Source of the DNA: Trypanosoma brucei
Taxonomy: Eukaryota
DNA: 64,000 bases
Assembly (NCBI GenBank): GCA_000002445.1
Contig: CH464491.1
Location: 256,001 to 320,000 of the forward strand
Direction: 5' to 3'
A model generated the notes under the pieces. The model saw nothing but the letters and a program-made list of their open reading frames with translations. It did no database searches and had not been told where the DNA came from. Shown here piece by piece: positions 16,587 to 44,100 of the stretch. Positions within the stretch are counted from its first letter, which is position 1; each line of letters begins with the position of its first letter. The position numbers and the translations under genes were made by a program.

Positions 16587-16620
16587 TTTTGTGTTTGTGA
16601 TCACTCCCAGCGGCAAAGGG

Positions 16621-20989: not shown

Positions 20990-21135
20990 TTCCCCTTGCT
21001 CCCGGGTGTTTTCACCGGTCACTTACTGTAGGTACGTCGTTCATTCTCCTTCCCCCACCTTCTAGCGGTGGTTGTAATATTCGTTGCCTTCTCTTTCCCT
21101 TTTTTGAACATTGCTTTTTTTTTTTCTCACTGGTG
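20990..21135 (+). promoter_or_regulatory. Polypyrimidine tract upstream of ORF 21178. Probable splice-acceptor region.
   Basis: Includes ccttctctttcccttttttgaacattgctttttttttttctcac, immediately 5' of the ATG. Confidence 0.5.
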
Positions 21136-21177
21136 TGGATGTGAATAACCGCAGCAACACCTATCAGGGGGTGGAGT

Positions 21178-23179: not shown

Positions 23180-26100
23180 GTGCGAGTCACCATAAACATG
23201 GCGTGTCAAGAGGTAAATAGTGAAGTTCCTGACAGCGATGTAGTTTTCCATGACACCATTTTTATGAGAAACAACAAACACGTCTCGGAGCAATGGATTC
23301 GTATTGGCGAATTGTACCCCAATGGTGCGAAGGAATCATTGCTCCCGGAGACGTTTGCACGCGAACAGTTCGGACAAGGAAGTCACTATGAGTGCTTCAT
23401 GCTTTCTGCCCTCGCCACTTTAGTAAAATTCCCCGACATCATTCGGAACTGCTTCGTGTCGAGGAATGTGCGGCGTGACGGGAGGTACACTTTTCAGTTC
23501 TTTCGTGACAAGGAATGGGTGAAGGTTGAAATTGATGACTCTGTTATGCTTGAGGATGATGAAGTTTTGTTCATCCGATCACCCACTAGTCATTGGTGGC
23601 CGCTACTGTTTGAGAAGGCTTATGCGAAATTCTACACCAGCTACGACAATTTGGAGGGTTGTACCTTACAGGAGGCGTACCATGACTTAACTGGCAACCC
23701 CGTGCTCAACATCCCCATGGACGCGAGGCTTGCCAAGGCTGCAGGTGTGGATGTGACTGGAGGTCAGTATTGGCTTGACCTCGCACAGAAGCTGCAATCC
23801 GGCCAGTTTGTTGGTTCGCTGCTGACGAGGGAAACGGACCTTGAGTCGATGGGTTTGCAGAGTGAGCAACAATACGGGATACTAGAGATTTTTTCGCTAA
23901 CTGGGACATCATCTGTAAGCGACATTGTGATTCACCTATACAACCCATTCGAGGACGAGGAATTCACGTACAAAGGCCCGCTGAACAGTAAGGACACGGA
24001 GTGGACCCCCAAACTCCGTGAAAAGTATAACGTGGATGATACGCACTCCATATTTCTTCCGCTACACGTTGCCCTGAAGATCGTAAATTCGGTGCAACTT
24101 TGCTACATATCCCCTATTGATGGTGACGCGACGTATTTTGATGATGAGTGGAAGGGTGAAACTGCGGGAGGGAACCCCACGAGTGTAACATGGCGCAAGA
24201 ACCCCCTATACTGCGTCAGGAACGCTGGGATCAACCCCGTGGAACTGGTTGTCGTGATTAAGCAGAAGGATCAACGTCATCTTTGGACATCAGAAGATGA
24301 TGAACTGATGTACAAAAGGTGTGGCATTGTTGTTGTTCAGAGTACCACAGTCACACAAATACCGACATATTTTGTAACAGGGAACAATCACAAAGCAATA
24401 CACAAGAGTTTGTTCCTAAACTCTCGTGAAGTGTCCAGTTTCGTTCGGATACCACCTAATTCCTTGTGCTACCTTGTACCTTCTTGCATGAAGAAGGGAG
24501 CGGAGAGTGCATTTACGCTCGCACTGTACCGGATGAAGCACCAAAATTATACGGAGTTCAATGTTAGTCGACTTGCTCTGCCGAAATTGCTGTGGCACAA
24601 TCCTATCCAAGAGAAACTCCAACTTCAAATGTTCACAAAGGATAGAAGGGATTTTTACGTCGATATACCCACTGACATTCACATTTTGATGCATCAAGAA
24701 AAACCGTTTGTAAGTGAGAAGACCGGTGGTGATGCTATGGTTCAGGATTACGTTGGTGTCTACCTTTATGATGACACGGACCGTAAGATTGGAGGTGTGC
24801 ACGCTGCGACGAATTTCAGGGAAACAAGTGTCTTGCATCGCCTTCCTCGTAGTGGTCGTTATGCTATTTCAATTACGTGTCCCCGGGCAAGTGGTGAAGT
24901 ACCCATTGCTCTCACAATTGTTGGTTCTCCTGATGCTAATGTTCGTATTGTTGAGGCTCCTGATGATGCCTCCATGTTTGATGATGAGGATGATATTGCA
25001 GAGGGTGATGAGGATGCTACTGTTTCTAATCCCATTGACTACATTCCTGTTGCTGGTGGAGGGCAGGTGTTCACTGAGGTACCCGATAGTACGGTCCCAT
25101 TTGAAGATAAACGTTTCATGGTTGATAATAAGATTATGACGAATGAACCGTGGATCCACATTGGTGACCTTTATCCTGAGGGAAAGACGCGCTCACTTTT
25201 GCCGGAGCGTCTGAGTCGTGAGCAGTTTGAGCAGGGTGAACACTTCGAGTGCTGTTGTCTGACCGCTTTTGCAGCGCTGGTGGAGCACCACCCCAACGTA
25301 ATTCGTGACGCGTTTGTGACGAAGGCTGTACGACGTGACGGACGGTACACGTTCCGGTTCCACCGCTACGGTCAGTGGGTGAAGGTGGAGATTGATGATC
25401 GTATTCCCCTTCTTGGTGGGAAAACTTTATTCTGTCGATCATCTGATGGTTATTGGTGGCCACTACTACTAGAGAAGGCGTATGCTAAGTTCTACACACT
25501 ATACCAAAATATTGAGGGATGTACGCTGCGGGAACTGTTTTACGACCTAACAGGGCTTCCTGTGCTTAGCATTCCGATGGAGTTGAAACTCGCGAAGGCT
25601 GTACTGTGTGATGTTGATGATGTGAGTTTTTGGGTTGAGCTCAGTGAGGGTCTGAAGGATTGTGCGTGTGCTGCCGTTGCACGCCCCGGTTTCGATGACA
25701 CCCTTGGTTTGTCCAATGGGCAAGAGTACGCTGTCCTTGATGTGGTATCGTTAACGGATGGTGAGGCCTCTTCCATATCTGATCTTGTTGTAAAACTTCA
25801 TAATCCGTTTCTGGAGACTGAGTACAAAGGCCCTATGAATGCAAGCGATGCTGCGTGGTCGTCTGAGCTGCGTACCCGTCTATGTCCGGAGCGACGGGAT
25901 ACTATCTACATTCCCGTGGAAGTTTTCTGCAATGCATTTCTCACTGTGGAGAAAGTTATGGTGCGTGGTCTTATTGTTCCCGGGTGGCAATTCAACAGTG
26001 AATGGGGTGAGGGCACGAACGGTGGCAATCCAACACTTGTGACGTGGCGTGAGAACCCCATTTACGTTGTGCAGAACACTGCGGATACCCCGTTACAGAT

Positions 26101-29100
26101 TATTGCAATGATTGGGCAACCTGATCAGCGTCGCGTGCTACACCTTCTCCCCGAGCAAGAGGTAAACTACGTTCAATGTGGGTTGTCGCTTGCCAAGAGT
26201 ATTAAGGGTGAATCGATCCCGACATACTTGCTGACACCCAATAGTCATGTTTTGATTCATAAGGGCCGTTTCTTTTCTTACCGTGAAGTAGCTGATGTTA
26301 TTGTTGTTCCGGGGAATAGCCTCACTTTTCTCGTTCCAAGCGCGATGTTTCGTGACAAAACGAAGTTTCTTCTCTCGTACTGGTACTCTAGTGCGAACGA
26401 CAGGAACAGTGTTACAATTGAGCGTCTTAATTTGGGTGTTGCGCGGCATCTTCCAGCCATTGCCCATCTCACTGTCAAAGAGAGGGTGAGGGAGCAAGTG
26501 GATTTTATTGTCGATGTTCCCACTGACGTTCATATCCTTCTTCGTCAAGAAAAACCCTGCCACGGTGACAGTGTTTCAAATGCCTTGACAGATGATTTTC
26601 TTGCCATGTATTTGTATAATTCTGAAGATGATCAACTCAGTGGTGTTGTGACCGCGACCAACTACAGGGAGATGGGAATAGTTCATCACCTCTCCGAAGG
26701 GGGGAGATATGTAATTTACGTTGTTTGCCCTCGTGCTGAGGGTGAGGTTCCTTTGAGAATAGAAATTGTCGCTATGCAGTCGGCCCAGGTTCGCACAGTG
26801 GAAGCATTACCCTTGTGCAAATCAATCTTGCAGGTGGAAAAAGAGCTAAAGCTGAGTACTGGGTCCTTGCCATACTCACCACTCCTTATAAGCGAAGGGG
26901 ATCTCAAAAATTTCTCGGGGCGACTATCGGACAACTCTATGCGGTTGGAGAGTTCCAGTGACCCTGACTTATCTTTCCTTGGAGCCGAGGTGGAAGGAAT
27001 TCCCACCCTGGATCTCACTCTGATGAGCGACTCTTCATTTTCTGAGATGGCACGTGAGCGCATGCAATTAAAGCGGGATCCCATTGCTAATGCGAGTCGT
27101 TTGGCTGAGGTTGAAGATAGTATGGTGGCACGTGCGAATGCTATTGCCAAGGAAATGCATTTGAGAGAGCGGCGATATCTGAACCCTGAGCCTGAGGGTG
27201 TCCCCCTTGAGTTGCTTCCTTTAAACGAGGACGAAGTTGTGAGTGAGAAGGAGGACCGCCTCCGTGCGCTGAATCGTAAGGAGCAGAAGGACGAGAAACT
27301 GTTACGGAGTCTTGAGGACGTGATAGCGGACCGTGTACACGAGATCGCGAGGGAGCTGAAGGTGAGTGAACGTGATCTGTTCCTTGATCCCACTCCAGGA
27401 GGTTTCCCTGTAGCGCAGCTTCCGCTGGACGAAGACGATGTGTTTCATTCACTCGAAGTGGAGCGACTGCAACTGCGACTGCGTCAGGATTCCCTTGCTA
27501 GCAAAGAAAGAATTGCTGAACTGGAAAACATGATGAATTGTAGGACTACGGAGCTCATCGACAAAATGAAAGAAGAGATTAGGAAGTTTCTTGACCCCAC
27601 CCCACTAGGAATACCACTTGAAGAACTAAAACTGGACGAACACGACAATTATGTTGCAAAAGAGATAAGCCTAATTGGAATGATAAGAAAAGGGAAAAAA
27701 GAATCACAGGAAGCAATTTCAATTCGGGAACAGTTACTTCAAATAGAATACGCTGTTGCCAAGGAACACTTAAACAACTTTAGGATACAGTACCTCGGAG
27801 ACGACATTGAGGGTCGCCAACCGAACGAATTAAACTTAGAAGAAGAAGAAACTTATATGCAGATGGAGAGAAAATTGATTGAATACTACAACAGTAATCA
27901 ACGTAACAGCGAAGAAGCGCAGAAAATAAGAGTAAATCTACTTCACAAAGCTACAAAAGCATCAAAGCATTTAAATCGATCCGAGAGAAAAAACTACATT
28001 AAGAGAGACAGACTCGAGATTTCAATATCAAACATTCCGCTTGATGACAACGAACAGTTCACAACATTAGAAGCGGAACGAATAAGAAAAAAAAGAAATA
28101 AAAAAAATTCAGAGGTTGAACAAATAGAAATGGAACTCAACAATATAGCACAACAGCTAGCTAAACTGAAAGCATCCGATAGCCGCAGCTTCCTTGATCC
28201 TATGCCAGAAGGAGTGCCGTTGAGTGAGCTTGAATTGGACAAGGATGAGAAGTTCAGCACCATGGAAGAGGAGCGTCGTAAGCTTATTGCTGAGGATCGT
28301 GAAGATAATGCAACACGCATTGCTGAATTAGAAGCAGCAATGAACGAGTATTCACATGAGCTTGCTAAACTGAAAGCATCCGATAGCCGCAGCTTCCTTG
28401 ATCCTATGCCAGAAGGAGTGCCGTTGAGTGAGCTTGAATTGGATAAGGATGAGAAGTTCAGCACCATGGAAGAGGAGCGTCGTAAGCTTATTGCTGAGGA
28501 TCGTGAAGGTAATGCTGCGCGCATTGCTGAATTAGAAGCAGCAATGAACGAGCATTCACATGAGCTTGCTAAACTGAAAGCATCCGATAGCCGCAGCTTC
28601 CTTGATCCTATGCCAGAAGGAGTGCCGTTGAGTGAGCTTGAATTGGATAAGGATGAGAAGTTCAGCACCATGGAAGAGGAGCGTCGTAAGCTTATTGCTG
28701 AGGATCGTGAAGATAATGCAACACGCATTGCTGAATTAGAAGCAGCAATGAACGAGTATTCACATGAGCTTGCTAAACTGAAAGCATCCGATAGCCGCAG
28801 CTTCCTTGATCCTATGCCAGAAGGAGTGCCGTTGAGTGAGCTTGAATTGGATAAGGATGAGAAGTTCAGCACCATGGAAGAGGAGCGTCGTAAGCTTATT
28901 GCTGAGGATCGTGAAGGTAATGCTGCACGCATTGCTGAACTAGAAGCTGCAATGAACGAGCATTCACATGAGCTTGCTAAACTGAAAGCATCCGATAGCC
29001 GCAGCTTCCTTGATCCTATGCCAGAAGGAGTGCCGTTGAGTGAGCTAGGATTGGATAAGGATGAGAAGTTCAGCACCATGGAAGAGGAGCGTCGTAAGCT

Positions 29101-32100
29101 TATTGCTGAGGATCGTGAAGGTAATGCAACACGCATTGCTGAATTAGAAGCAGCAATGAACGAGCATTCACATAAGCTTGCTAAACTGAAAGCATCCGAT
29201 AGCCGCAGCTTCCTTGATCCTATGCCAGAAGGAGTGCCGTTGAGTGAGCTTGAATTGGATAAGGATGAGAAGTTCAGCACCATGGAAGAGGAGCGTCGTA
29301 AGCTTATTGCTGAGGATCGTGAAGGTAATGCTGCACGCATTGCTGAACTAGAAGCTGCAATGAACGAGCATTCACATGAGCTTGCTAAACTGAAAGCATC
29401 CGATAGCCGCAGCTTCCTTGATCCTATGCCAGAAGGAGTGCCACTAAGTGAGCTTGAATTGGATAAGGATGAGAAGTTCAGCACCATGGAAGAGGAGCGT
29501 CGTAAGCTTATTGCTGAGGATCGTGAAGGTAATGCTGCACGCATTGCTGAATTAGAAGCAGCAATGAACGAGCATTCACATGAGCTTGCTAAACTGAAAG
29601 CATCCGATAGCCGCAGCTTCCTTGATCCTATGCCAGAAGGAGTGCCGTTGAGTGAGCTTGAATTGGACAAGGATGAGAAGTTCAGCACCATGGAAGAGGA
29701 GCGTCGTAAGCTTATTGCTGAGGATCGTGAAGGTAATGCTGCACGCATTGCTGAATTAGAAGCAGCAATGAACGAGCATTCACATGAGCTTGCTAAACTG
29801 AAAGCATCCGATAGCCGCAGCTTCCTTGATCCTATGCCAGAAGGAGTGCCGTTGAGTGAGCTTGAATTGGATAAGGATGAGAAGTTCAGCACCATGGAAG
29901 AGGAGCGTCGTAAGCTTATTGCTGAGGATCGTGAAGGTAATGCTGCACGCGTTGCTGAACTAGAAGCTGCAATGAACGAGCATTCACATGAGCTTGCTAA
30001 ACTGAAAGCATCCGATAGCCGCAGCTTCCTTGATCCTATGCCAGAAGGAGTGCCGTTGAGTGAGCTAGGATTGGATAAGGATGAGAAGTTCAGCACCATG
30101 GAAGAGGAGCGTCGTAAGCTTATTGCTGAGGATCGTGAAGGTAATGCTGCACGCATTGCTGAACTAGAAGCAGCAATGAACGAGCATTCACATGAGCTTG
30201 CTAAACTGAAAGCATCCGATAGCCGCAGCTTCCTTGATCCTATGCCAGAAGGAGTGCCGTTGAGTGAGCTTGAATTGGATAAGGATGAGAAGTTCAGCAC
30301 CATGGAAGAGGAGCGTCGTAAGCTCATTGCTGAGGATCGTGAAGGTAATGCTGCACGCATTGCTAGACTTGAGGAGAGGATGAACGAACTTTCCCGTGAA
30401 CTCGCAAGAATGAAGTTGAAGGATCGCAGCTTCCTTGATCCTATGCCAGAAGGAGTGCCACTAAGTGAGCTTGAATTGGATAAGGATGAGAAGTTCAGCA
30501 CCATGGAAGAGGAGCGTCGTAAGCTCATTGCTGAGGATCGTGAAGGTAATGCAACACGCATTGCTGAATTAGAAGCAGCTATGAACGAGCATTCACATGA
30601 GCTTGCTAAACTGAAAGCATCCGATAGCCGCAGCTTCCTTGATCCTATGCCAGAAGGAGTGCCGTTGAGTGAGCTTGAATTGGATAAGGATGAGAAGTTC
30701 AGCACCATGGAAGAGGAGCGTCGTAAGCTCATTGCTGAGGATCGTGAAGGTAATGCAACACGCATTGCTGAATTAGAAGCAGCAATGAGCGAGCATTCAC
30801 ATGAGCTTGCTAAACTGAAAGCATCCGATAGCCGCAGCTTCCTTGATCCTATGCCAGAAGGAGTGCCACTAAGTGAGCTTGAATTGGATAAGGATGAGAA
30901 GTTCAGCACCATGGAAGAGGAGCGTCGTAAGCTTATTGCTGAGGATCGTGAAGGTAATGCTGCACGCATTGCTGAACTAGAAGCAGCTATGAACGAGCAT
31001 TCACATGAGCTTGCTAAACTGAAAGCATCCGATAGCCGCAGCTTCCTTGATCCTATGCCAGAAGGAGTGCCGCTAAGTGAGCTTGAATTGGATAAGGATG
31101 AGAAGTTCAGCACCATGGAAGAGGAGCGTCGTAAGCTTATTGCCGAGGATCGTGAAGGTAATGCTGCACGCATTGCTGAACTAGAAGCAGCGATGAACGA
31201 GCATTCACATGAGCTTGCTAAACTGAAAGCATCCGATAGCCGCAGCTTCCTTGATCCTATGCCAGAAGGAGTGCCGTTGAGTGAGCTTGAATTGGACAAG
31301 GATGAGAAGTTCAGCACCATGGAAGAGGAGCGTCGTAAGCTTATTGCTGAGGATCGTGAAGGTAATGCTGCACGCATTGCTGAACTAGAAGCAGCAATGA
31401 ACGAGCATTCACATGAGCTTGCTAAACTGAAAGCATCCGATAGCCGCAGCTTCCTTGATCCTATGCCAGAAGGAGTGCCGTTGAGTGAGCTTGAATTGGA
31501 TAAGGATGAGAAGTTCAGCACCATGGAAGAGGAGCGTCGTAAGCTTATTGCTGAGGATCGTGAAGGTAATGCTGCACGCATTGCTGAACTAGAAGCAGCA
31601 ATGAACGAGCATTCACATGAGCTTGCTAAACTGAAAGCATCCGATAGCCGCAGCTTCCTTGATCCTATGCCAGAAGGAGTGCCGTTGAGTGAGCTAGGAT
31701 TGGATAAGGATGAGAAGTTCAGCACCATGGAAGAGGAGCGTCGTAAGCTTATTGCTGAGGATCGTGAAGGTAATGCAGCACGCATTGCTGAACTAGAAGC
31801 AGCAATGAACGAGCATTCACATGAGCTTGCTAAACTGAAAGCATCCGATAGCCGCAGCTTCCTTGATCCTATGCCAGAAGGAGTGCCGTTGAGTGAGCTT
31901 GAATTGGATAAGGATGAGAAGTTCAGCACCATGGAAGAGGAGCGTCGTAAGCTTATTGCTGAGGATCGTGAAGGTAATGCTGCACGCATTGCTGAATTAG
32001 AAGCAGCAATGAACGAGCATTCACATGAGCTTGCTAAACTGAAAGCATCCGATAGCCGCAGCTTCCTTGATCCTATGCCAGAAGGAGTGCCGTTGAGTGA

Positions 32101-35100
32101 GCTTGAATTGGATAAGGATGAGAAGTTCAGCACCATGGAAGAGGAGCGTCGTAAGCTTATTGCTGAGGATCGTGAAGGTAATGCTGCACGCATTGCTGAA
32201 TTAGAAGCAGCAATGAACGAGCATTCACATGAGCTTGCTAAACTGAAAGCATCCGATAGCCGCAGCTTCCTTGATCCTATGCCAGAAGGAGTGCCGTTGA
32301 GTGAGCTTGAATTGGATAAGGATGAGAAGTTCAGCACCATGGAAGAGGAGCGTCGTAAGCTTATTGCTGAGGATCGTGAAGGTAATGCTGCACGCATTGC
32401 TGAATTAGAAGCAGCAATGAACGAGCATTCACATGAGCTTGCTAAACTGAAAGCATCCGATAGCCGCAGCTTCCTTGATCCTATGCCAGAAGGAGTGCCG
32501 TTGAGTGAGCTTGAATTGGATAAGGATGAGAAGTTCAGCACCATGGAAGAGGAGCGTCGTAAGCTTATTGCTGAGGATCGTGAAGGTAATGCTGCACGCG
32601 TTGCTGAACTAGAAGCTGCAATGAACGAGCATTCACATGAGCTTGCTAAACTGAAAGCATCCGATAGCCGCAGCTTCCTTGATCCTATGCCAGAAGGAGT
32701 GCCGTTGAGTGAGCTAGGATTGGATAAGGATGAGAAGTTCAGCACCATGGAAGAGGAGCGTCGTAAGCTTATTGCTGAGGATCGTGAAGGTAATGCTGCA
32801 CGCATTGCTGAACTAGAAGCAGCAATGAACGAGTATTCACATGAGCTTGCTAAACTGAAAGCATCCGATAGCCGCAGCTTCCTTGATCCTATGCCAGAAG
32901 GAGTGCCGTTGAGTGAGCTAGGATTGGATAAGGATGAGAAGTTCAGCACCATGGAAGAGGAGCGTCGTAAGCTTATTGCTGAGGATCGTGAAGGTAATGC
33001 TGCACGCATTGCTGAATTAGAAGCAGCAATGAACGAGCATTCACATGAGCTTGCTAAACTGAAAGCATCCGATAGCCGCAGCTTCCTTGATCCTATGCCA
33101 GAAGGAGTGCCGTTGAGTGAGCTTGAATTGGATAAGGATGAGAAGTTCAGCACCATGGAAGAGGAGCGTCGTAAGCTTATTGCTGAGGATCGTGAAGGTA
33201 ATGCTGCACGCATTGCTGAATTAGAAGTTGCAATGAACGAGCATTCACATGAGCTTGCTAAACTGAAAGCATCCGATAGCCGCAGCTTCCTTGATCCTAT
33301 GCCAGAAGGAGTGCCGTTGAGTGAGCTTGAATTGGATAAGGATGAGAAGTTCAGCACCATGGAAGAGGAGCGTCGTAAGCTTATTGCTGAGGATCGTGAA
33401 GGTAATGCTGCACGCATTGCTGAACTAGAAGCAGCAATGAACGAGCATTCACATGAGCTTGCTAAACTGAAAGCATCCGATAGCCGCAGCTTCCTTGATC
33501 CTATGCCAGAAGGAGTGCCGTTGAGTGAGCTTGAATTGGATAAGGATGAGAAGTTCAGCACCATGGAAGAGGAGCGTCGTAAGCTTATTGCTGAGGATCG
33601 TGAAGGTAATGCTGCACGCATTGCTGAACTAGAAGCTGCAATGAACGAGCATTCACATGAGCTTGCTAAACTGAAAGCATCCGATAGCCGCAGCTTCCTT
33701 GATCCTATGCCAGAAGGAGTGCCGTTGAGTGAGCTAGGATTGGATAAGGATGAGAAGTTCAGCACCATGGAAGAGGAGCGTCGTAAGCTTATTGCTGAGG
33801 ATCGTGAAGGTAATGCTGCACGCATTGCTGAATTAGAAGCAGCGATGAACGAGTATTCACATGAGCTTGCTAAACTGAAAGCATCCGATAGCCGCAGCTT
33901 CCTTGATCCTATGCCAGAAGGAGTGCCACTAAATGAGCTTGAATTGGACAAGGATGAGAAGTTCAGCACCATGGAAGAGGAGCGTCGTAAGCTTATTGCT
34001 GAGGATCGTGAAGGTAATGCTGCACGCATTGCTGAACTAGAAGCAGCAATGAACGAGTATTCACATGAGCTTGCTAAACTGAAAGCATCCGATAGCCGCA
34101 GCTTCCTTGATCCTATGCCAGAAGGAGTGCCACTAAATGAGCTTGAATTGGACAAGGATGAGAAGTTCAGCACCATGGAAGAGGAGCGTCGTAAGCTTAT
34201 TGCCGAGGATCGTGAAGGTAATGCTGCACGCATTGCTGAACTAGAAGCTGCAATGAACGAGCATTCACATGAGCTTGCTAAACTGAAAGCATCCGATAGC
34301 CGCAGCTTCCTTGATCCTATGCCAGAAGGAGTGCCGTTGAGTGAGCTTGAATTGGACAAGGATGAGAAGTTCAGCACCATGGAAGAGGAGCGTCGTAAGC
34401 TTATTGCTGAGGATCGTGAAGGTAATGCTGCACGCATTGCTGAATTAGAAGCAGCAATGAACGAGCATTCACATGAGCTTGCTAAACTGAAAGCATCCGA
34501 TAGCCGCAGCTTCCTTGATCCTATGCCAGAAGGAGTGCCGCTAAGTGAGCTTGAATTGGATAAGGATGAGAAGTTCAGCACCATGGAAGAGGAGCGTCGT
34601 AAGCTTATTGCTGAGGATCGTGAAGGTAATGCTGCACGCATTGCTGAACTAGAAGCAGCAATGAACGAGCATTCACATGAGCTTGCTAAACTGAAAGCAT
34701 CCGATAGCCGCAGCTTCCTTGATCCTATGCCAGAAGGAGTGCCGTTGAGTGAGCTAGGATTGGATAAGGATGAGAAGTTCAGCACCATGGAAGAGGAGCG
34801 TCGTAAGCTTATTGCTGAGGATCGTGAAGGTAATGCTGCACGCATTGCTGAATTAGAAGCAGCAATGAACGAGCATTCACATGAGCTTGCTAAACTGAAA
34901 GCATCCGATAGCCGCAGCTTCCTTGATCCTATGCCAGAAGGAGTGCCGTTGAGTGAGCTAGGATTGGATAAGGATGAGAAGTTCAGCACCATGGAAGAGG
35001 AGCGTCGTAAGCTTATTGCTGAGGATCGTGAAGGTAATGCTGCACGCATTGCTGAATTAGAAGCAGCAATGAACGAGCATTCACATGAGCTTGCTAAACT

Positions 35101-38100
35101 GAAAGCATCCGATAGCCGCAGCTTCCTTGATCCTATGCCAGAAGGAGTGCCGTTGAGTGAGCTTGAATTGGATAAGGATGAGAAGTTCAGCACCATGGAA
35201 GAGGAGCGTCGTAAGCTTATTGCTGAGGATCGTGAAGGTAATGCTGCACGCATTGCTGAATTAGAAGCAGCAATGAACGAGCATTCACATGAGCTTGCTA
35301 AACTGAAAGCATCCGATAGCCGCAGCTTCCTTGATCCTATGCCAGAAGGAGTGCCGTTGAGTGAGCTTGAATTGGATAAGGATGAGAAGTTCAGCACCAT
35401 GGAAGAGGAGCGTCGTAAGCTTATTGCTGAGGATCGTGAAGGTAATGCTGCACGCATTGCTGAACTAGAAGCAGCAATGAACGAGTATTCACATGAGCTT
35501 GCTAAACTGAAAGCATCCGATAGCCGCAGCTTCCTTGATCCTATGCCAGAAGGAGTGCCGTTGAGTGAGCTTGAATTGGATAAGGATGAGAAGTTCAGCA
35601 CCATGGAAGAGGAGCGTCGTAAGCTTATTGCTGAGGATCGTGAAGGTAATGCTGCACGCATTGCTGAATTAGAAGCAGCAATGAACGAGCATTCACATGA
35701 GCTTGCTAAACTGAAAGCATCCGATAGCCGCAGCTTCCTTGATCCTATGCCAGAAGGAGTGCCGTTGAGTGAGCTTGAATTGGACAAGGATGAGAAGTTC
35801 AGCACCATGGAAGAGGAGCGTCGTAAGCTTATTGCTGAGGATCGTGAAGGTAATGCTGCACGCATTGCTGAATTAGAAGCAGCAATGAACGAGCATTCAC
35901 ATGAGCTTGCTAAACTGAAAGCATCCGATAGCCGCAGCTTCCTTGATCCTATGCCAGAAGGAGTGCCGTTGAGTGAGCTTGAATTGGATAAGGATGAGAA
36001 GTTCAGCACCATGGAAGAGGAGCGTCGTAAGCTTATTGCTGAGGATCGTGAAGGTAATGCTGCACGCATTGCTGAACTAGAAGCAGCAATGAACGAGTAT
36101 TCACATGAGCTTGCTAAACTGAAAGCATCCGATAGCCGCAGCTTCCTTGATCCTATGCCAGAAGGAGTGCCGTTGAGTGAGCTTGAATTGGATAAGGATG
36201 AGAAGTTCAGCACCATGGAAGAGGAGCGTCGTAAGCTTATTGCTGAGGATCGTGAAGGTAATGCTGCACGCATTGCTGAATTAGAAGCAGCAATGAACGA
36301 GCATTCACATGAGCTTGCTAAACTGAAAGCATCCGATAGCCGCAGCTTCCTTGATCCTATGCCAGAAGGAGTGCCGTTGAGTGAGCTTGAATTGGATAAG
36401 GATGAGAAGTTCAGCACCATGGAAGAGGAGCGTCGTAAGCTTATTGCTGAGGATCGTGAAGGTAATGCTGCACGCATTGCTGAACTAGAAGCTGCAATGA
36501 ACGAGCATTCACATGAGCTTGCTAAACTGAAAGCATCCGATAGCCGCAGCTTCCTTGATCCTATGCCAGAAGGAGTGCCGTTGAGTGAGCTTGAATTGGA
36601 CAAGGATGAGAAGTTCAGCACCATGGAAGAGGAGCGTCGTAAGCTTATTGCTGAGGATCGTGAAGGTAATGCTGCACGCATTGCTGAACTAGAAGCTGCA
36701 ATGAACGAGCATTCACATGAGCTTGCTAAACTGAAAGCATCCGATAGCCGCAGCTTCCTTGATCCTATGCCAGAAGGAGTGCCGTTGAGTGAGCTAGGAT
36801 TGGATAAGGATGAGAAGTTCAGCACCATGGAAGAGGAGCGTCGTAAGCTTATTGCTGAGGATCGTGAAGGTAATGCTGCACGCATTGCTGAATTAGAAGC
36901 AGCGATGAACGAGTATTCACATGAGCTTGCTAAACTGAAAGCATCCGATAGCCGCAGCTTCCTTGATCCTATGCCAGAAGGAGTGCCGTTGAGTGAGCTT
37001 GAATTGGACAAGGATGAGAAGTTCAGCACCATGGAAGAGGAGCGTCGTAAGCTTATTGCCGAGGATCGTGAAGGTAATGCTGCACGCATTGCTGAACTAG
37101 AAGCTGCAATGAACGAGCATTCACATGAGCTTGCTAAACTGAAAGCATCCGATAGCCGCAGCTTCCTTGATCCTATGCCAGAAGGAGTGCCGTTGAGTGA
37201 GCTTGGATTGGATAAGGATGAGAAGTTCAGCACCATGGAAGAGGAGCGTCGTAAGCTTATTGCTGAGGATCGTGAAGGTAATGCTGCACGCATTGCTGAA
37301 CTAGAAGCAGCGATGAACGAGCATTCACATGAGCTTGCTAAACTGAAAGCATCCGATAGCCGCAGCTTCCTTGATCCTATGCCAGAAGGAGTGCCACTAA
37401 GTGAGCTAGGATTGGATAAGGATGAGAAGTTCAGCACCATGGAAGAGGAGCGTCGTAAGCTTATTGCTGAGGATCGTGAAGGTAATGCTGCACGCATTGC
37501 TGAACTAGAAGCAGCGATGAACGAGCATTCACATGAGCTTGCTAAACTGAAAGCGTCATATAGCCGCAGCTTCCTTGATCCTATGCCAGAAGGAGTGCCG
37601 TTGAGTGAGCTTGAATTGGATAAGGATGAGAAGTTCAGCACCATGGAAGAGGAGCGTCGTAAGCTTATTGCTGAGGATCGTGAAGGTAATGCAACACGCA
37701 TTGCTGAATTAGAAGCAGCAATGAACGAGCATTCACATGAGCTTGCTAAACTGAAAGCATCCGATAGCCGCAGCTTCCTTGATCCTATGCCAGAAGGAGT
37801 GCCGTTGAGTGAGCTTGAATTGGATAAGGATGAGAAGTTCAGCACCATGGAAGAGGAGCGTCGTAAGCTTATTGCTGAGGATCGTGAAGGTAATGCTGCA
37901 CGCATTGCTGAACTAGAAGCAGCGATGAACGAGCATTCACATGAGCTTGCTAAACTGAAAGCATCCGATAGCCGCAGCTTCCTTGATCCTATGCCAGAAG
38001 GAGTGCCGTTGAGTGAGCTTGAATTGGATAAGGATGAGAAGTTCAGCACCATGGAAGAGGAGCGTCGTAAGCTTATTGCTGAGGATCGTGAAGGTAATGC

Positions 38101-41100
38101 TGCACGCATTGCTGAACTAGAAGCAGCAATGAACGAGCATTCACATGAGCTTGCTAAACTGAAAGCATCCGATAGCCGCAGCTTCCTTGATCCTATGCCA
38201 GAAGGAGTGCCGTTGAGTGAGCTAGGATTGGATAAGGATGAGAAGTTCAGCACCATGGAAGAGGAGCGTCGTAAGCTTATTGCTGAGGATCGTGAAGGTA
38301 ATGCAACACGCATTGCTGAACTAGAAGCAGCAATGAACGAGCATTCACATGAGCTTGCTAAACTGAAAGCGTCATATAGCCGCAGCTTCCTTGATCCTAT
38401 GCCAGAAGGAGTGCCGTTGAGTGAGCTTGAATTGGACAAGGATGAGAAGTTCAGCACCATGGAAGAGGAGCGTCGTAAGCTTATTGCTGAGGATCGTGAA
38501 GGTAATGCAACACGTATCGCTGAATTAGAAGTTGCAATGAACGAGCATTCACATGAGCTTGCTAAACTGAAAGCATCCGATAGCCGCAGCTTCCTTGATC
38601 CTATGCCAGAAGGAGTGCCACTAAGTGAGCTTGAATTGGATAAGGATGAGAAGTTCAGCACCATGGAAGAGGAGCGTCGTAAGCTTATTGCCGATGATCG
38701 TGAAGGTAATGCTGCACGCATTGCTAGACTTGAGGAGAGGATGAACGAACTTTCCCGTGAACTCGCAAGAATGAAGTTGAAGGATCGCAGCTTCCTCGAT
38801 CCTATGCCAGAAGGAGTGCCGTTGAGTGAGCTTGAATTGGATAAGGATGAGAAGTTCAGCACCATGGAAGAGGAGCGTCGTAAGCTTATTGCTGAGGATC
38901 GTGAAGGTAATGCAACACGCATTGCTGAATTAGAAGCAGCAATGAACGAGCATTCACATGAGCTTGCTAAACTGAAAGCATCCGATAGCCGCAGCTTCCT
39001 TGATCCTATGCCAGAAGGAGTGCCACTAAGTGAGCTTGAATTGGATAAGGATGAGAAGTTCAGCACCATGGAAGAGGAGCGTCGTAAGCTTATTGCCGAT
39101 GATCGTGAAGGTAATGCTGCACGCATTGCTAGACTCGAGGAGAGGATGAACGAACTTTCCCGTGAACTCGCAAGAATGAAGTTGAAGGATCGCAGCTTCC
39201 TCGATCCTATGCCAGAAGGAGTGCCACTAAGTGAGCTTGAATTGGATAAGGATGAGAAGTTCAGCACCATGGAAGAGGAGCGTCGTAAGCTTATTGCTGA
39301 GGATCGTGAAGGTAATGCAACACGCATTGCTGAATTAGAAGTTGCAATGAACGAGCATTCACATGAGCTTGCTAAACTGAAAGCATCCGATAGCCGCAGC
39401 TTCCTTGATCCTATGCCAGAAGGAGTGCCGTTGAGTGAGCTTGAATTGGATAAGGATGAGAAGTTCAGCACCATGGAAGAGGAGCGTCGTAAGCTTATTG
39501 CTGAGGATCGTGAAGGTAATGCAACACGCATTGCTGAATTAGAAGTTGCAATGAACGAGCATTCACATGAGCTTGCTAAACTGAAAGCATCCGATAGCCG
39601 CAGCTTCCTTGATCCTATGCCAGAAGGAGTGCCGTTGAGTGAGCTTGAATTGGACAAGGATGAGAAGTTCAGCACCATGGAAGAGGAGCGTCGTAAGCTT
39701 ATTGCTGAGGATCGTGAAGGTAATGCAACACGCATTGCTGAATTAGAAGCAGCAATGAACGAGCATTCACATGAGCTTGCTAAACTGAAAGCATCCGATA
39801 GCCGCAGCTTCCTTGATCCTATGCCAGAAGGAGTGCCGTTGAGTGAGCTTGAATTGGATAAGGATGAGAAGTTCAGCACCATGGAAGAGGAGCGTCGTAA
39901 GCTTATTGCTGAGGATCGTGAAGGTAATGCAACACGCATTGCTGAATTAGAAGCAGCAATGAACGAGCATTCACATGAGCTTGCTAAACTGAAAGCATCC
40001 GATAGCCGCAGCTTCCTTGATCCTATGCCAGAAGGAGTGCCGTTGAGTGAGCTAGGATTGGATAAGGATGAGAAGTTCAGCACCATGGAAGAGGAGCGTC
40101 GTAAGCTTATTGCTGAGGATCGTGAAGGTAATGCAACACGCATTGCTGAACTAGAAGCAGCAATGAACGAGCATTCACATGAGCTTGCTAAACTGAAAGC
40201 ATCCGATAGCCGCAGCTTCCTTGATCCTATGCCAGAAGGAGTGCCGTTGAGTGAGCTTGAATTGGATAAGGATGAGAAGTTCAGCACCATGGAAGAGGAG
40301 CGTCGTAAGCTTATTGCTGAGGATCGTGAAGGTAATGCTGCACGCATTGCTGAACTAGAAGCTGCAATGAACGAGCATTCACATGAGCTTGCTAAACTGA
40401 AAGCATCCGATAGCCGCAGCTTCCTTGATCCTATGCCAGAAGGAGTGCCGTTGAGTGAGCTTGAATTGGATAAGGATGAGAAGTTCAGCACCATGGAAGA
40501 GGAGCGTCGTAAGCTTATTGCTGAGGATCGTGAAGGTAATGCTGCACGCATTGCTGAATTAGAAGCAGCAATGAAGGAGAATTNNNNNNNNNNNNNNNNN
40601 NNNNNNNNNNNNNNNNNNNNNNNNNNNNNNNNNNNNNNNNNNNNNNNNNNNNNNNNNNNNNNNNNNNNNNNNNNNNNNNNNNNTAAGCTTATTGCTGAGG
40701 ATCGTGAAGGTAATGCTGCACGCATTGCTGAATTAGAAGCAGCAATGAACGAGCATTCACATGAGCTTGCTAAACTGAAAGCATCCGATAGCCGCAGCTT
40801 CCTTGATCCTATGCCAGAAGGAGTGCCACTAAGTGAGCTTGAATTGGACAAGGATGAGAAGTTCAGCACCATGGAAGAGGAGCGTCGTAAGCTTATTGCT
40901 GAGGATCGTGAAGGTAATGCAACACGCATTGCTGAATTAGAAGCAGCAATGAACGAGCATTCACATGAGCTTGCTAAACTGAAAGCATCCGATAGCCGCA
41001 GCTTCCTTGATCCTATGCCAGAAGGAGTGCCGTTGAGTGAGCTTGAATTGGATAAGGATGAGAAGTTCAGCACCATGGAAGAGGAGCGTCGTAAGCTTAT

Positions 41101-44100
41101 TGCTGAGGATCGTGAAGGTAATGCTGCACGCATTGCTGAATTAGAAGTTGCAATGAACGAGCATTCACATGAGCTTGCTAAACTGAAAGCATCCGATAGC
41201 CGCAGCTTCCTTGATCCTATGCCAGAAGGAGTGCCGTTGAGTGAGCTTGAATTGGATAAGGATGAGAAGTTCAGCACCATGGAAGAGGAGCGCCGTAAGC
41301 TTATTGCTGAGGATCGTGAAGGTAATGCAACACGCATTGCTGAATTAGAAGTTGCAATGAACGAGCATTCACATGAGCTTGCTAAACTGAAAGCATCCGA
41401 TAGCCGCAGCTTCCTTGATCCTATGCCAGAAGGAGTGCCACTAAGTGAGCTAGGATTGGACAAGGATGAGAAGTTCAGCACCATGGAAGAGGAGCGCCGT
41501 AAGCTCATTGCTGAGGATCGTGAAGGTAATGCAACACGCATCGCTGAATTAGAAGTTGCAATGAACGAGTATTCACATGAGCTTGCTAAACTGAAAGCAT
41601 CCGATAGCCGCAGCTTCCTTGATCCTATGCCAGAAGGAGTGCCACTAAGTGAGCTTGAATTGGACAAGGATGAGAAGTTCAGCACCATGGAAGAGGAGCG
41701 TCGTAAGCTCATTGCTGAGGATCGTGAAGGTAATGCAACACGCATTTGTCGCTTGGAAAGGAAAATGGGGAGGCGTGTTGATAAGCTGGCTAAACTGAAA
41801 GCGTCATATAGCCGCAGCTTCCTTGATCCTATGCCAGAAGGAGTGCCACTAAATGAGCTTGAATTGGATAAGGATGAGAAGTTCAGCACCATGGAAGAGG
41901 AGCGTCGTAAGCTCATTGCTGAGGATCGTGAAGGTAATGCAACACGCATTGCTGAATTAGAAGTTGCAATGAACGAGCATTCACATGAGCTTGCTAAACT
42001 GAAAGCATCCGATAGCCGCAGCTTCCTTGATCCTATGCCAGAAGGAGTGCCACTAAGTGAGCTTGAATTGGATAAGGATGAGAAGTTCAGCACCATGGAA
42101 GAGGAGCGTCGTAAGCTTATTGCTGAGGATCGTGAAGGTAATGCAACACGCATTGCTGAATTAGAAGAGTGTATGAGTGCTCGAGTTCGGAATTTGGCTA
42201 TTTGTAAGTCTACTTTAGGTGGAGTGATTGTTGATGAGAGAATTGGTCTTGTTCCTTTGTATTTGTTACCGTTGGGGGAGGATTCGGTTTTGAGTTCGTT
42301 GACTTCTAAATTGGAATCTATGCGATGTGGTGGGTGTTTACCCGATAGTGTTGCTGTGCGTGATATCCAAGAACAAATTATATGTCGAGTAGAGAAATTG
42401 GCAGAAGTGTATTTAGAACATGAACTTGATTTTCTGGAAACTGTTGACGGAATTTCTGTTTCTCAGATCGCACTTTCTGATGACAAGGTGTTTTGTGAAA
42501 TGCAGCGGTCGTTGCGCCAGTTGAGAAAAAGTCCGGTAAGAAATGCAGAAGCCATACGGGATATTGAGTATGCGATGAATAATATCGTTCGTGAACTGTC
42601 GTCAAAACTATTACTGGAGGATTGTAGTTACCTGAATCAGTGTCCTCACGGCGTACCTCTTGCTGACTTACCGCTGGATAATCGGTTATTTCGCGAGATT
42701 GAATTGAAGAGAAGAAGATTAAAAGAGGATGACCCGTTAAAAAATGCGACGAGGATTAGAGAGTTGGAGATGAAATTGAATGATCATGCCGAGCGTTTGG
42801 CCGCGCTTATGTTAAGTGAGGAACGTGCTTTTCTTGAGCCATGCTCGCACGGTCTTCCCCTTAGTCGCCTTCAGTTGGGAGAGGATTCTTCCTTTCTTGC
42901 AATGGAAAGGGAAAGAAGGAAGTTATTGCGTGAAGGGGGTAAAGACAAAAACCGTATCAGGTATCTCGAAGAATGCATGAGGGAACATGTCAGCAATGTC
43001 GCCCTCTCTCTAATTTCCTGGCAGGATGTTCAATTTCATGAAGCTAACCATTCTGTAGCGGAGATGTGGCCGCGAATCGGTGAGTTGTACCCTGAAGGAA
43101 TCCGAAACTCTGTGTTTCCGGAAATAACACAGCCGGGCGATACTTCATCTGCGCCTGGTGAACTTGGCTATTTAGCACCTTTCATTGCCGCTCTCAGTCA
43201 ACACCCGCCTCTAATTCATCGGCTTCTGGAAACGAAAACACATCCCGTTAATGGTCCATATTCTTTCATCTTTTTTGATCCGAACAGCAACCCTGTTCGT
43301 GTTGACATTGATGACCGTGTGCCAGTGGATGCGAAGTGTGAGCCCAAGTTTACACGCGTGCCACACCGGTCTTGGTACCCGCTGCTGCTGGAGAAGGCAT
43401 ATGCGAAGTTTGTTGGTGGGTACGCAAAGCTCGACCAGTGCACACCACACGAAACCCTCCATGACCTAACGGGCCGTCCAGTGACACATATCCCTTTTGA
43501 TGAGAAGCGAGCAGATGGAATCAAAATTGGGGACTTCCGATCTGTGAAATTCTGGAAGGGGATTAAAAGGGATCTTGCGGCTGGAGATGTTATTATGGCA
43601 ATGACGAACGGTAGTGTTCCCGACGGCCTTCACTCTCAATGTAGTTACGCTCTCCTTAGTGTAATCGAAACTGTGCATGAATCGAATGATGTCTCTGACA
43701 TCGTGATCAAATTACACAACTGCTACTACGATAGCCCGACATACGACGGCCCACTGTGTAACGATGATGATAACTGGACCGATGGTTTGAAGAGACTTTG
43801 CCATTATAATCCTGAGGAGGATGCACTTTACATACCTGTTCCTGTGTTTCTGCGTAACTTCTCGAGCATGCAGCGCTGTCACATAAACTGTGGCGACCGT
43901 CTGACTGCGCCTGGTGAGTGGACTGGGGTAAGCTGTGGAGGAAACCCGAAGTTCACAACTTTCCGGAACAACCCCATCTATCTTGTGGAAAACAAAACCT
44001 CCCGTCCCGTTACCATTCTTGCTGAGCTGCGGCATCAAGCCCCTGTGTTTTTTGATGCCGATGGGGTAAATCACTATCATCAGTCTGGGCTGGCGCTCTT

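What the first reader, a model, noticed from the sequence alone, without database searches (positions are those of the whole stretch)
23249..27498. Mosaic near-100% identity between the N-terminal regions of the two paralogs, consistent with gene conversion tracts with sharp edges
Identity begins about 16 codons inside both CDSs; the 5' leaders and first codons are unrelated. It then runs for about 2.9 kb with essentially no mismatches, synonymous sites included. Two short islands break it, at about 24285-24335 and 24540-24740, where the genes encode different peptide segments and the offset shifts by exactly 3 bp each time. Identity stops abruptly at 26185, and a second 540-bp identical block follows at 26959-27498. 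This pattern is what recent, repeated gene conversion between tandem paralogs produces. The divergent islands may be selectively maintained, paralog-specific surface or interaction segments. A collapsed or mis-joined assembly is an alternative explanation that must be excluded.
Basis: seen in the sequence. Interest (0 to 1): 0.6.

Follow-up and report, generated by a model that had tools for sequence, protein, structure and literature searches.

The report
Gene-conversion mosaic in trypanosome calpain paralogs
Two neighbouring giant cytoskeletal genes of the sleeping-sickness parasite Trypanosoma brucei (ClpGM6 and the next calpain-like gene) keep several kilobases of coding sequence almost letter-for-letter identical by repeatedly copying sequence from each other; the process is well known in trypanosome gene arrays, so this is a clean, well-documented but ordinary example.

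Summary
The window is T. b. brucei TREU927 chromosome 11. Gene 1 (23198-44914) is ClpGM6; gene 2 (47463 to beyond the window) is XP_828204.1. Four tracts (23246-24277, 24320-24532, 24746-26185, 26960-27499) differ from their gene 2 copies at only 10 of 3,225 sites (dS 0.003-0.03). The first 16 codons, two islands, a 774-nt stretch and everything downstream are 41-57% identical, with saturated dS. Edges are sharp to 1-3 nt. In the unconverted region, gene 2 groups with T. congolense and T. cruzi type B genes (99% bootstrap). In the tracts, paralogs group by species (100%). The duplication therefore predates the T. brucei/T. cruzi split, and homogenisation is recent and independent in each lineage. 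Three strain-specific substitutions occur in both paralogs across three assemblies. T. cruzi has the same kind of mosaic, with islands overlapping both T. brucei islands. Two further tracts lie in gene 1's C-terminal calpain domain (43019-43460, 43643-44037). Assembly duplication is excluded at assembly level, although the GM6 repeat array does contain a real gap. Whether the islands are held by selection or are passive barriers to recombination is unresolved. This is a new member of a known kind, of modest interest.

The parts
23198..44914 (+). Gene 1 = ClpGM6 (gene models Tb927.11.1090 + Tb927.11.1100, formerly Tb11.57.0008 + Tb11.47.0036). Layout: two N-terminal calpain-like units, 68-aa GM6 repeats, a C-terminal calpain-like unit.
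   Evidence: Pfam finds Peptidase_C2 twice, Calpain_III, DUF7623 repeats and a C-terminal Peptidase_C2. The published anti-GM6 peptides occur 62 and 64 times (PMC4121973). The split gene models are described in PMC9981465.
47463..63998 (+). Gene 2, a calpain-like paralog with degenerate DUF7623 repeats. It runs off the window end. It is XP_828204.1 of TREU927, probably Tb927.11.1110 / Tb11.47.0035.
Evidence: All 5,512 window residues are identical to P0031 = XP_828204.1. Pfam domains.
23198..23245 (+). First 16 codons of gene 1. Homologous to gene 2's first 15 codons (47463-47507) but anciently diverged; this is the 5' limit of homogenisation.
   Evidence: 56% nt identity with saturated synonymous differences. 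The upstream leaders share no similarity.
23246..24277 (+). Conversion tract 1, gene 1 copy. Covers CysPc-1 and the start of domain III.
   Evidence: 2 differences in 1032 nt, dS 0.009, dN 0. Sharp edges.
47508..48539 (+). Conversion tract 1, gene 2 copy.
   Evidence: Offset 24262.
24278..24319 (+). Island 1, gene 1 version (gene 2 version: 48540-48578, 3 nt shorter). A loop in the Calpain_III domain.
   Evidence: 44% nt identity. It is the least conserved segment among orthologues, 21-57%. It overlaps T. cruzi island I.
24320..24532 (+). Conversion tract 1b, gene 1 copy (gene 2 copy: 48579-48791).
   Evidence: 1 difference in 213 nt, located at the edge.
24533..24745 (+). Island 2, gene 1 version (gene 2 version: 48792-49001, 3 nt shorter). 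Begins immediately after the Calpain_III match.
   Evidence: 57% nt identity, dS 1.9, dN 0.51. It overlaps T. cruzi island II.
24746..26185 (+). Conversion tract 2, gene 1 copy. Covers the end of unit 1, CysPc-2 and the start of domain III-2.
   Evidence: 1 difference in 1440 nt, dS 0.003. Contains a 1,425-nt perfect run.
49002..50441 (+). Conversion tract 2, gene 2 copy.
   Evidence: Offset 24256.
26186..26959 (+). Unconverted region of gene 1: the rest of unit 2 plus a short linker. Gene 2's counterpart is 50442-51482, with two extra repeat-like units.
   Evidence: 56% nt identity, dS saturated. In this region gene 2 clusters with T. congolense and T. cruzi type B at 99% bootstrap. It coincides with the 'unique' RNAi fragment of Hayes et al., nt 3069-3762.
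26960..27499 (+). Conversion tract 3, gene 1 copy. Covers the first ~2.6 DUF7623 repeats.
   Evidence: 6 differences in 540 nt, dS 0.03. Significantly more diverged than tracts 1-2 (Fisher p = 0.002).
51483..52022 (+). Conversion tract 3, gene 2 copy.
   Evidence: Offset 24523.
43019..43460 (+). C-terminal conversion tract, gene 1 copy (CysPc-3). Its partner lies in gene 2 beyond the window.
   Evidence: 442-nt perfect match to DAL972 gene 2; within DAL972 there is 1 difference. Flanks are saturated. The TREU927 gene 2 protein is identical here.
43643..44037 (+). Second C-terminal conversion tract, gene 1 copy. Separated from the first by a patchy island (43461-43642).
   Evidence: 395-nt perfect run against DAL972 gene 2.
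40584..40683 (.). 100-N scaffold gap inside the GM6 repeat array. It is not part of the mosaic but bears on assembly quality.
   Evidence: The reading frame across the gap is preserved only because 100 mod 3 equals the repeat-phase deficit.

Best explanation
ClpGM6 (type A) and the adjacent calpain-like gene (type B) are ancient tandem paralogs. They are transcribed in the same direction and lie 2.5 kb apart. Homologous-recombination repair repeatedly uses one copy as template for the other, which is non-reciprocal interlocus gene conversion. This has homogenised at least six discrete coding tracts: four in the N-terminal region and two in the C-terminal calpain domain. These tracts are mainly the slowly evolving calpain-like (CysPc) modules and the first repeats. 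Tracts stop abruptly where the copies are already too different, at about 50% identity with 3-nt indels. Each gene therefore keeps its own 5' end, two islands, one whole sub-domain, its linker and its own repeat array.

Shown here: the mosaic itself, the age of the duplication, the recency and multiplicity of homogenisation, co-variation across strains, and a parallel mosaic in T. cruzi.

Inferred, not shown: the molecular pathway (RAD51-type recombination with mismatch-dependent rejection of diverged heteroduplex, from general knowledge of T. brucei recombination), and the reason the islands persist.
For: - Within tracts dS is 0.003-0.03; in islands and flanks dS is saturated.
- The longest perfect run is 1,425 nt, against at most 93 by permutation. 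Edges are sharp to 1-3 nt.
- In the unconverted region, (Tb_g2, Tcon_B, Tcr_B) has 99% bootstrap. Site patterns are 13 orthology: 3 species: 1 cross. In the tracts, (Tb_g1,Tb_g2) and (Tcr_A,Tcr_B) each have 100% bootstrap and patterns are 0:243:0.
- Gene 1's positional orthologue follows the same upstream genes in T. cruzi, T. theileri and L. mexicana.
- Three strain-specific substitutions, one in each of three tracts separated by unconverted islands, occur in both paralogs. One haplotype is swapped between paralogs in TREU927 and DAL972. Together these imply at least three separate events on the timescale of T. brucei subspecies divergence.
- Tract 3 is significantly older than tract 2 (p = 0.002).
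- T. cruzi tracts have dS 0.016-0.04 and its islands dS 1.1-1.8. Different T. cruzi copies carry different combinations of segments.
- Additional tracts lie in the C-terminal domain.
- Partial gene conversion is documented in 21 of 47 T. brucei tandem arrays (PMC1855330), and subspecies-specific mosaics are described in PMC2854126.
Against: - No read-level data were available. The co-varying sites come from consensus assemblies, where reads from identical tracts can be misassigned between paralogs. All three sites do lie within 250 nt of a paralog-specific edge.
- There is no GC3 excess in the tracts, so no footprint of GC-biased conversion.
- Neither the direction of transfer nor the donor could be inferred.
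- The Leishmania paralogs are diverged throughout and group together. The duplication cannot be dated before the Trypanosoma/Leishmania split by sequence; only a shared linker insertion supports that (84 bits against 61 or less).
- Island site patterns between T. brucei and T. cruzi are only 4:3:0.
Confidence: 0.9

Rival explanations
1. Assembly artefact: only one copy of the N-terminal block exists, and the assembler duplicated or mis-joined it.
For: The window has a real 100-N gap inside gene 1's repeat array. One draft assembly, L001 (GCA_001457755.2), is demonstrably scrambled between gene 1 and gene 2 across these tracts. Mis-joins therefore do occur at this locus.
Against: - Each copy is contiguous with its own unique leader, in-frame diverged islands and its own downstream sequence.
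- The two copies differ at 10 sites.
- The same two-gene mosaic appears in the independently shotgun-sequenced DAL972 and in the gap-free IVM-t1 chromosome record. There gene 1 has its own leader and island 1, and gene 2 has its own.
- Both gene types exist in T. congolense, T. cruzi and Leishmania.
- Hayes et al. used Southern blots, 5' endogenous tagging and RNAi fragments that map exactly onto the non-identical stretches.
Confidence: 0.02
2. A single recent segmental replacement, such as one unequal crossover or one long conversion, rather than repeated conversion. The islands were then re-introduced or diverged afterwards.
For: Tracts 1, 1b and 2 have similarly low divergence, so they could in principle date from a single episode.
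Against: - The islands have saturated dS and so cannot have diverged since a recent event.
- One heteroduplex cannot plausibly pass through about 50%-identical segments containing indels and leave them unchanged.
- Tract 3 is significantly older.
- Strain-specific substitutions are shared by both paralogs in three separate tracts.
- The same pattern evolved in T. cruzi, with shuffled segment combinations.
Confidence: 0.05
3. A sub-hypothesis about the islands: they persist because selection removes convertants. On this view they encode paralog-specific determinants, for example localisation to the flagellum attachment zone versus another cytoskeletal site.
For: - Both islands overlap islands in the T. 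cruzi pair.
- Both island versions evolve under purifying selection (dN/dS about 0.27 for island 2).
- In island 2 each T. cruzi type is closer to its T. brucei counterpart (65% and 57%, against 49% for the cross comparisons).
- In T. cruzi the two paralog types localise differently (PMC3214072).
Against: - Island 1 is the fastest-evolving segment in all orthologue comparisons (21-57%). Island 2 is moderately fast within Trypanosoma. Fast-evolving segments would become passive barriers to recombination without any selection for difference.
- T. cruzi has two further islands that are fully homogenised in T. brucei. T. congolense type B has a type-A-like island 1. Islands can therefore be erased.
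- Orthology site patterns in the islands are not decisive (4:3:0).
Confidence: 0.3
4. No recombination: extreme purifying selection, including on synonymous sites, keeps the tracts identical.
For: The tracts cover the most conserved calpain-like modules.
Against: The same tracts are only 45-90% identical in protein between T. brucei and T. cruzi and 75-82% between T. brucei and T. congolense. Constraint is therefore ordinary. Identity at synonymous sites within a species, co-variation between strains and trees that group paralogs by species cannot be produced by selection alone.
Confidence: 0.01

Closest known systems
Partial gene conversion and concerted evolution in T. brucei tandem gene arrays (Jackson 2007, PMC1855330; Jackson et al. 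2010, PMC2854126)
   Same: Same organism and same genomic setting: head-to-tail paralogs inside a polycistronic unit. Coding tracts are homogenised, chimaeric copies occur, paralogs cluster by species, and subspecies-specific mosaics are seen.
   Different: The published survey does not mention calpain genes at all. According to it was built on arrays of more than three copies. Here there are only two genes, each over 16 kb. Homogenisation covers about 4 kb in six tracts, while the repeat arrays and a whole sub-domain stay distinct. Two island positions are shared with T. cruzi.
T. cruzi H49/calpain family (Galetovic et al. 2011, PMC3214072)
   Same: Orthologous system: a calpain-like protein with conserved 68-aa repeats, and a paralog with degenerate repeats. 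The authors noted 98% identity over the first 1,165 aa between two members. They invoked unequal crossover or gene conversion for the repeats.
   Different: They did not describe a tract-and-island mosaic or date the duplication. The analysis here shows islands overlapping those of T. brucei, plus two T. cruzi-specific islands.
ClpGM6 of T. brucei (Hayes et al. 2014, PMC4121973)
   Same: Gene 1 is this gene. It has the GM6 repeats, calpain-like ends and the assembly gap. The published 'unique' RNAi fragments fall exactly on the non-identical stretches.
   Different: The paper treats ClpGM6 alone. [quoted passage not shown]
Classical interlocus conversion between tandem paralogs, such as the T. 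brucei phosphoglycerate kinase B/C genes and the human gamma-globin pair (recalled from general knowledge, not checked here)
   Same: Ancient duplicates with recently homogenised coding tracts that have sharp boundaries and divergent flanks.
   Different: Different gene families. Here there are several tracts per gene pair and a parallel mosaic in a distant congener.

Membership tests
Interlocus (ectopic) gene conversion / concerted evolution | In the tract, paralogs within a species are more alike than orthologues between species. | tested here: met
   (Tb_g1,Tb_g2) and (Tcr_A,Tcr_B) each have 100% bootstrap. Site patterns are 0 orthology: 243 species: 0 cross.
Interlocus (ectopic) gene conversion / concerted evolution | The duplication is older than the apparent age of the tracts. 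| tested here: met
   In the unconverted region 997-1190, (Tb_g2,Tcon_B,Tcr_B) has 99% bootstrap. Tb_g2 is 70% identical to Tcr_B but only 52% identical to Tb_g1.
Interlocus (ectopic) gene conversion / concerted evolution | Synonymous sites are homogenised inside tracts, and the mosaic is non-random with discrete breakpoints. | tested here: met
   dS is 0.003-0.03 in tracts and saturated outside. The permutation test is and the edges are shown.
Interlocus (ectopic) gene conversion / concerted evolution | Paralogs co-vary, or share polymorphisms, among strains. | tested here: met
   Sites 23491, 24343 and 24814 co-vary. The haplotype at 27285-27289 is swapped between paralogs. Caveat: these are consensus assemblies, not reads.
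Interlocus (ectopic) gene conversion / concerted evolution | Non-reciprocal transfer is observed directly, with donor unchanged and acceptor converted. | not testable with these tools
   This needs experimental lineages or pedigrees.
ClpGM6 (gene 1) | Near-perfect 68-aa GM6 repeats that carry the published antibody epitopes. | tested here: met
   There are 69 copies of a 204-nt unit. The two peptides occur 62 and 64 times in gene 1 and never in gene 2.
ClpGM6 (gene 1) | Calpain-like domains at both ends; a single gene on chromosome 11 split by an assembly gap. | tested here: met
   Pfam domains; the gap; the literature.
Calpain family (Peptidase_C2), both genes | A Peptidase_C2 domain scoring above Pfam's gathering threshold. 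| tested here: met
   238 bits against a cut-off of 23.8, with two stretches in each N-terminus.
Calpain family (Peptidase_C2), both genes | An intact Cys-His-Asn catalytic triad, meaning an active protease. | not tested
   Hayes et al. state that the triad is lacking. I did not align the sequences to a solved calpain.
Assembly duplication artefact | The copies exist in only one assembly and are not each contiguous with unique flanks. | tested here: not met
   The mosaic is reproduced in DAL972 and in IVM-t1, each copy with its paralog-specific flanks.

The most novel reading that the evidence does not exclude
The two islands, and the unconverted sub-domain at 26186-26959, have been shielded from homogenisation since before the T. 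brucei/T. cruzi split because they are the specificity determinants of the two giant proteins. On this reading the conversion mosaic is a natural map. The homogenised calpain-like modules are interchangeable, and about 350 unconverted residues, together with the repeats, decide whether a protein behaves as ClpGM6 (flagellar side of the attachment zone, controlling the trypomastigote/epimastigote cell shape) or as its paralog.
Probability: 0.25. Interest if true: 0.5.

Novelty: new member of a known kind. Interest (0 to 1): 0.33.

Why it matters
Practical consequences:
- About 1,075 N-terminal residues, and roughly 280 C-terminal ones, are identical or nearly so between ClpGM6 and its neighbour.
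- RNAi fragments, tagging homology arms, antibodies, short-read mapping and proteomic peptides from these tracts cannot tell the two genes apart.
- Draft assemblies mis-join the genes here; L001 is an example.

Conceptual value: this is a clean case of ancient duplicates undergoing parallel concerted evolution in two distant trypanosome lineages with partly shared tract boundaries. It offers a natural experiment on what stops conversion tracts, selection or sequence divergence. It also suggests which segments might give ClpGM6, a regulator of trypanosome cell shape, its specific behaviour.

Tried and rejected
- GC-biased conversion: GC3 in tracts is 0.45-0.59, against 0.36-0.54 elsewhere. There is no consistent excess.
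- Pfam scan of the domain holding island 2 and of the unconverted sub-domain at a lenient threshold: nothing meaningful.
- Third homologue search, using gene 2's specific region: it returned only T. cruzi type A and a Strigomonas fragment. Type B sequences came from cluster members instead.
- L004 (T. cruzi draft) has N gaps exactly over the unconverted region.
- Look-up of the upstream ABC-transporter protein found nothing. The full gene 1 N-terminus of IVM-t1 could therefore not be fetched; only its first 1.3 kb was obtained.
- Island orthology between T. brucei and T. cruzi: site patterns of 4:3:0 and bootstraps of 28-66% are not decisive.
- Quartets using T. congolense as the type B representative only date the duplication before the T. 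brucei/T. congolense split. I initially over-read them.
- Dating the duplication before the Leishmania split by sequence failed. The Leishmania A and B genes group together. Only the linker insertion supports deep orthology.
- Bacterial, phage and plasmid tools were not used, because the window is kinetoplastid.

Full report
**What the window is.** The window has 47.6% G+C, and all large ORFs upstream of the finding lie on the + strand. Two giant ORFs dominate it. Gene 1 starts at ATG 23198 and stops at 44914. Gene 2 starts at ATG 47463 and runs off the window end.

Both genes encode two N-terminal Peptidase_C2 (calpain) units with Calpain_III, followed by DUF7623 repeats. Gene 1 ends in a third calpain unit. 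Gene 1 carries about 69 near-perfect 204-nt repeats. These repeats contain the two peptides used to raise the published anti-GM6 antibody, 62 and 64 times; gene 2 has none (PMC4121973). Gene 1 is therefore ClpGM6.

The 100-N run at 40584-40683 is the known join between gene models Tb927.11.1090 and Tb927.11.1100 (PMC9981465). Gene 2 is identical at all 5,512 visible residues to XP_828204.1 of T. b. brucei TREU927. This fixes the origin of the window. Gene 2 is probably Tb927.11.1110 / Tb11.47.0035, an inference from gene order.

**Checking the observation.** A codon-level alignment gives four tracts:

| Tract (gene 1 coordinates) | Differences | dS |
|---|---|---|
| 23246-24277 | 2 of 1032 nt | 0.009 |
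| 24320-24532 | 1 of 213 nt | 0.02 |
| 24746-26185 | 1 of 1440 nt | 0.003 |
| 26960-27499 | 6 of 540 nt | 0.03 |

Between and around the tracts the genes are far apart:

| Segment (gene 1 coordinates) | nt identity |
|---|---|
| First 16 codons | 56% |
| Island 1, 24278-24319 | 44% |
| Island 2, 24533-24745 | 57% |
| 26186-26959 | 56% |
| Downstream of 27499 | 41% |

Synonymous differences are saturated in all of these segments. Edges are sharp to 1-3 nt. The longest perfect run is 1,425 nt, whereas 2,000 permutations of the same differences never exceeded 93.

My first BLAST identities of 98-99% were an artefact of alignments running into the islands. The leaders upstream of the two start codons share nothing. 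The first 16 codons are recognisably homologous, so 'unrelated' is too strong for them.

**Age of the duplication.** Homologues fall into two types. Type A has a short linker and homogenised repeats. It includes gene 1 and proteins from T. theileri, T. melophagium, T. cruzi (P0003/P0004), L. mexicana and L. tarentolae. Type B has two extra repeat-like units in the linker and degenerate repeats. It includes gene 2, T. congolense P0006, T. cruzi P0025/P0018/P0009/P0022 and L. donovani P0008.

Type A follows the same upstream genes (Brix, Vasohibin-like, ABC transporter, a roughly 550-aa protein) in T. cruzi and T. theileri. In L. mexicana the locus shows only the ABC transporter and a 595-aa gene upstream.

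In the unconverted region (residues 997-1190 of gene 1), gene 2 groups with T. congolense and T. cruzi type B at 99% bootstrap. It is 70% identical to T. cruzi type B but only 52% identical to gene 1. Site patterns favour orthology 13:3:1. In the tracts, paralogs group by species at 100% bootstrap, with site patterns of 0:243:0. The A/B duplication therefore predates the T. brucei/T. cruzi split, and the tracts were homogenised separately in each lineage.

Deeper dating is uncertain. The Leishmania A and B genes are diverged throughout (36-68% identity) and group together. Only the type B linker supports orthology with Leishmania. Its best match is the positional equivalent in gene 2, at 84 bits against 61 or less for any other repeat.

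**Recency and repetition.** I compared three T. brucei-group assemblies: TREU927 (this window), T. b. gambiense DAL972 (L002) and T. equiperdum IVM-t1 (L003 and L010, both gap-free). At 23491, 24343 and 24814 both paralogs carry T in TREU927 and G, C and C respectively in DAL972. IVM-t1 carries the DAL972 base in every copy available: both paralogs at 23491 and 24343, and gene 2 only at 24814. At 27285/27286/27289 the haplotypes AGG and GAA sit in opposite paralogs in TREU927 and DAL972.

The three co-varying sites lie in three different tracts separated by unconverted islands. At least three events are therefore needed, on a timescale comparable to subspecies divergence: paralog differences within tracts are about 0.3%, and TREU927 differs from DAL972 by 0.4-0.7% here. 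Tract 3 is significantly more diverged than the others (Fisher p = 0.002), so the tracts are not all the same age.

One caveat applies. These are consensus assemblies, and reads from identical tracts can be misassigned between copies. All three sites do lie within 250 nt of a paralog-specific edge.

**A parallel mosaic in T. cruzi.** T. cruzi type A (L005, gap-free) and a type B copy (L004) show tracts with dS 0.016-0.04 and islands with dS 1.1-1.8. The islands fall at residues 341-400 and 441-520 in gene 1 numbering, overlapping both T. brucei islands. Two more islands, at about 811-845 and 881-940, fall where T. brucei is fully homogenised.

Other T. cruzi copies combine segments differently. 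P0025, for example, has type-A-like first codons, type B islands and a type B sub-domain. The type B N-terminus is found in several independent assemblies, including CL Brener and T. c. marinkellei, so it is not a one-off chimera. Galetovic et al. had already noted 98% identity over 1,165 N-terminal residues between two family members.

**The mosaic extends beyond the flagged region.** Gene 1's C-terminal calpain domain contains perfect runs at 43019-43460 and 43643-44037. These match gene 2's C-terminal domain in DAL972, and the TREU927 gene 2 protein is identical there too. The sequence on either side of the two runs is saturated (dS about 3 downstream), and a patchy island (dS about 0.34) lies between them.

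**The assembly alternative.** Each copy is contiguous with its own leader, islands and downstream sequence. DAL972 came from an independent whole-genome shotgun whose contigs were only ordered against the reference, and it reproduces the mosaic. IVM-t1 has both genes on one gap-free record, with start codons 26,056 nt apart.

The two 'unique' RNAi fragments of Hayes et al. (nt 3069-3762 and 4302-4960) map to 26266-26959 and 27499-28157. These are exactly the non-identical stretches. Their Southern blots and 5' tagging also treat ClpGM6 as a single gene.

The hazard is nevertheless real. The draft contig L001 is scrambled between gene 1 and gene 2 across these tracts. The copy number of the GM6 array in the window is also unknown because of the gap.

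**Mechanism.** The best explanation is repeated interlocus gene conversion between tandem paralogs. Tracts end where the pre-existing divergence and indels prevent heteroduplex extension. The homogenised tracts are mainly the conserved calpain-like modules. The unconverted parts are the 5' end, a loop in domain III, the start of the following domain, most of the second domain-III-like region, the linker and the repeats.

The involvement of RAD51-type recombination and mismatch-dependent rejection is inferred from general knowledge of T. brucei, not shown here. There is no GC3 excess in the tracts.

Why the islands persist is open. Three things favour selection:
- They overlap the T. cruzi islands.
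- dN/dS is below 1.
- The two paralog types localise differently in T. cruzi.

Three things count against it:
- Island 1 is the fastest-evolving segment among orthologues.
- T. cruzi-specific islands have been erased in T. brucei.
- T. congolense type B has a type-A-like island 1.

**Novelty and verdict.** Partial gene conversion in T. brucei tandem arrays is well documented, but that survey does not mention this calpain pair. The near-identity is only implicit in the ClpGM6 and H49 papers. This is a new, well-resolved member of a known kind.

It has practical relevance for reagent design, read mapping and assembly at the ClpGM6 locus. Its conceptual interest is modest: ancient duplicates with parallel concerted evolution and partly shared tract boundaries. 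I score interest at 0.33.

Noticed in passing
window 40584-40683: A 100-N scaffold gap lies inside the GM6 repeat array. The 7,238-aa ORF stays open across it only because the gap length mod 3 happens to equal the repeat-phase deficit. The ORF length and repeat count are therefore scaffold constructs. In the gap-free IVM-t1 record the two start codons are about 1.8 kb further apart.
   Followed up: yes
window 43019-44037 (partner beyond the window; L020:26540-27775): The C-terminal calpain domains of the two genes are also homogenised. There are two perfect tracts, of 442 and 395 nt, with a patchy island between them.
   Followed up: yes
L001 (GCA_001457755.2, CZPT02000675.1), about 11900-18400: This draft contig with 10-N gaps alternates between gene 1-specific and gene 2-specific sequence across the identical tracts. 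It is a clear mis-join of the two paralogs.
   Followed up: partly
window 27994-42153, minus strand: A 4,719-aa antisense 'ORF' spans the GM6 array. It most likely arises because the 204-nt unit has no stop codon in that antisense frame, and is not a gene.
   Followed up: no
window 30224-30523: One unit of the otherwise 96-100% identical GM6 array is only 67-68% identical to the reference unit. It is followed by a 201-nt rather than 204-nt spacing.
   Followed up: no
window 23198-26800 (residues 1-600 versus 620-1200 of gene 1): The N-terminal region is itself an internal tandem duplication of a calpain-like unit (CysPc, domain III and a further domain). The two units are about 45% identical. 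The C-terminal unit is a third copy, at about 30%.
   Followed up: partly
L018 (L. mexicana chr 27) and L006 (L. donovani chr 27): In Leishmania the A and B paralogs are diverged throughout (36-68%). They appear not to be immediate neighbours: there is no type B start within 5.9 kb downstream of type A, and no type A end within 10 kb upstream of type B. Greater distance might explain the lack of homogenisation.
   Followed up: partly
P0006 (T. congolense type B), residues aligned to gene 1 residues 361-374: T. congolense type B carries a type-A-like island 1, with the extra Trp-containing residue and a DEL.Y motif. This suggests that island 1 was overwritten by conversion in that lineage.
   Followed up: no
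P0025, P0018, P0022, P0009 (T. cruzi): T. cruzi has at least three N-terminal variants that combine type A and type B segments differently, including two versions of island I and two kinds of first codons (MAVAV.. and MSHHTIEEI..). This points to ongoing segment shuffling, or to more than two paralogs or haplotypes.
   Followed up: partly
window 13596-22815: The upstream gene order (Brix, Vasohibin-like, ABC transporter, a 545-aa protein) is conserved in T. cruzi. In T. theileri a 546-aa gene with no Pfam hit occupies the Vasohibin-like position. In L. mexicana the locus shows only the ABC transporter and a 595-aa gene directly ahead of the type A gene.
   Followed up: yes
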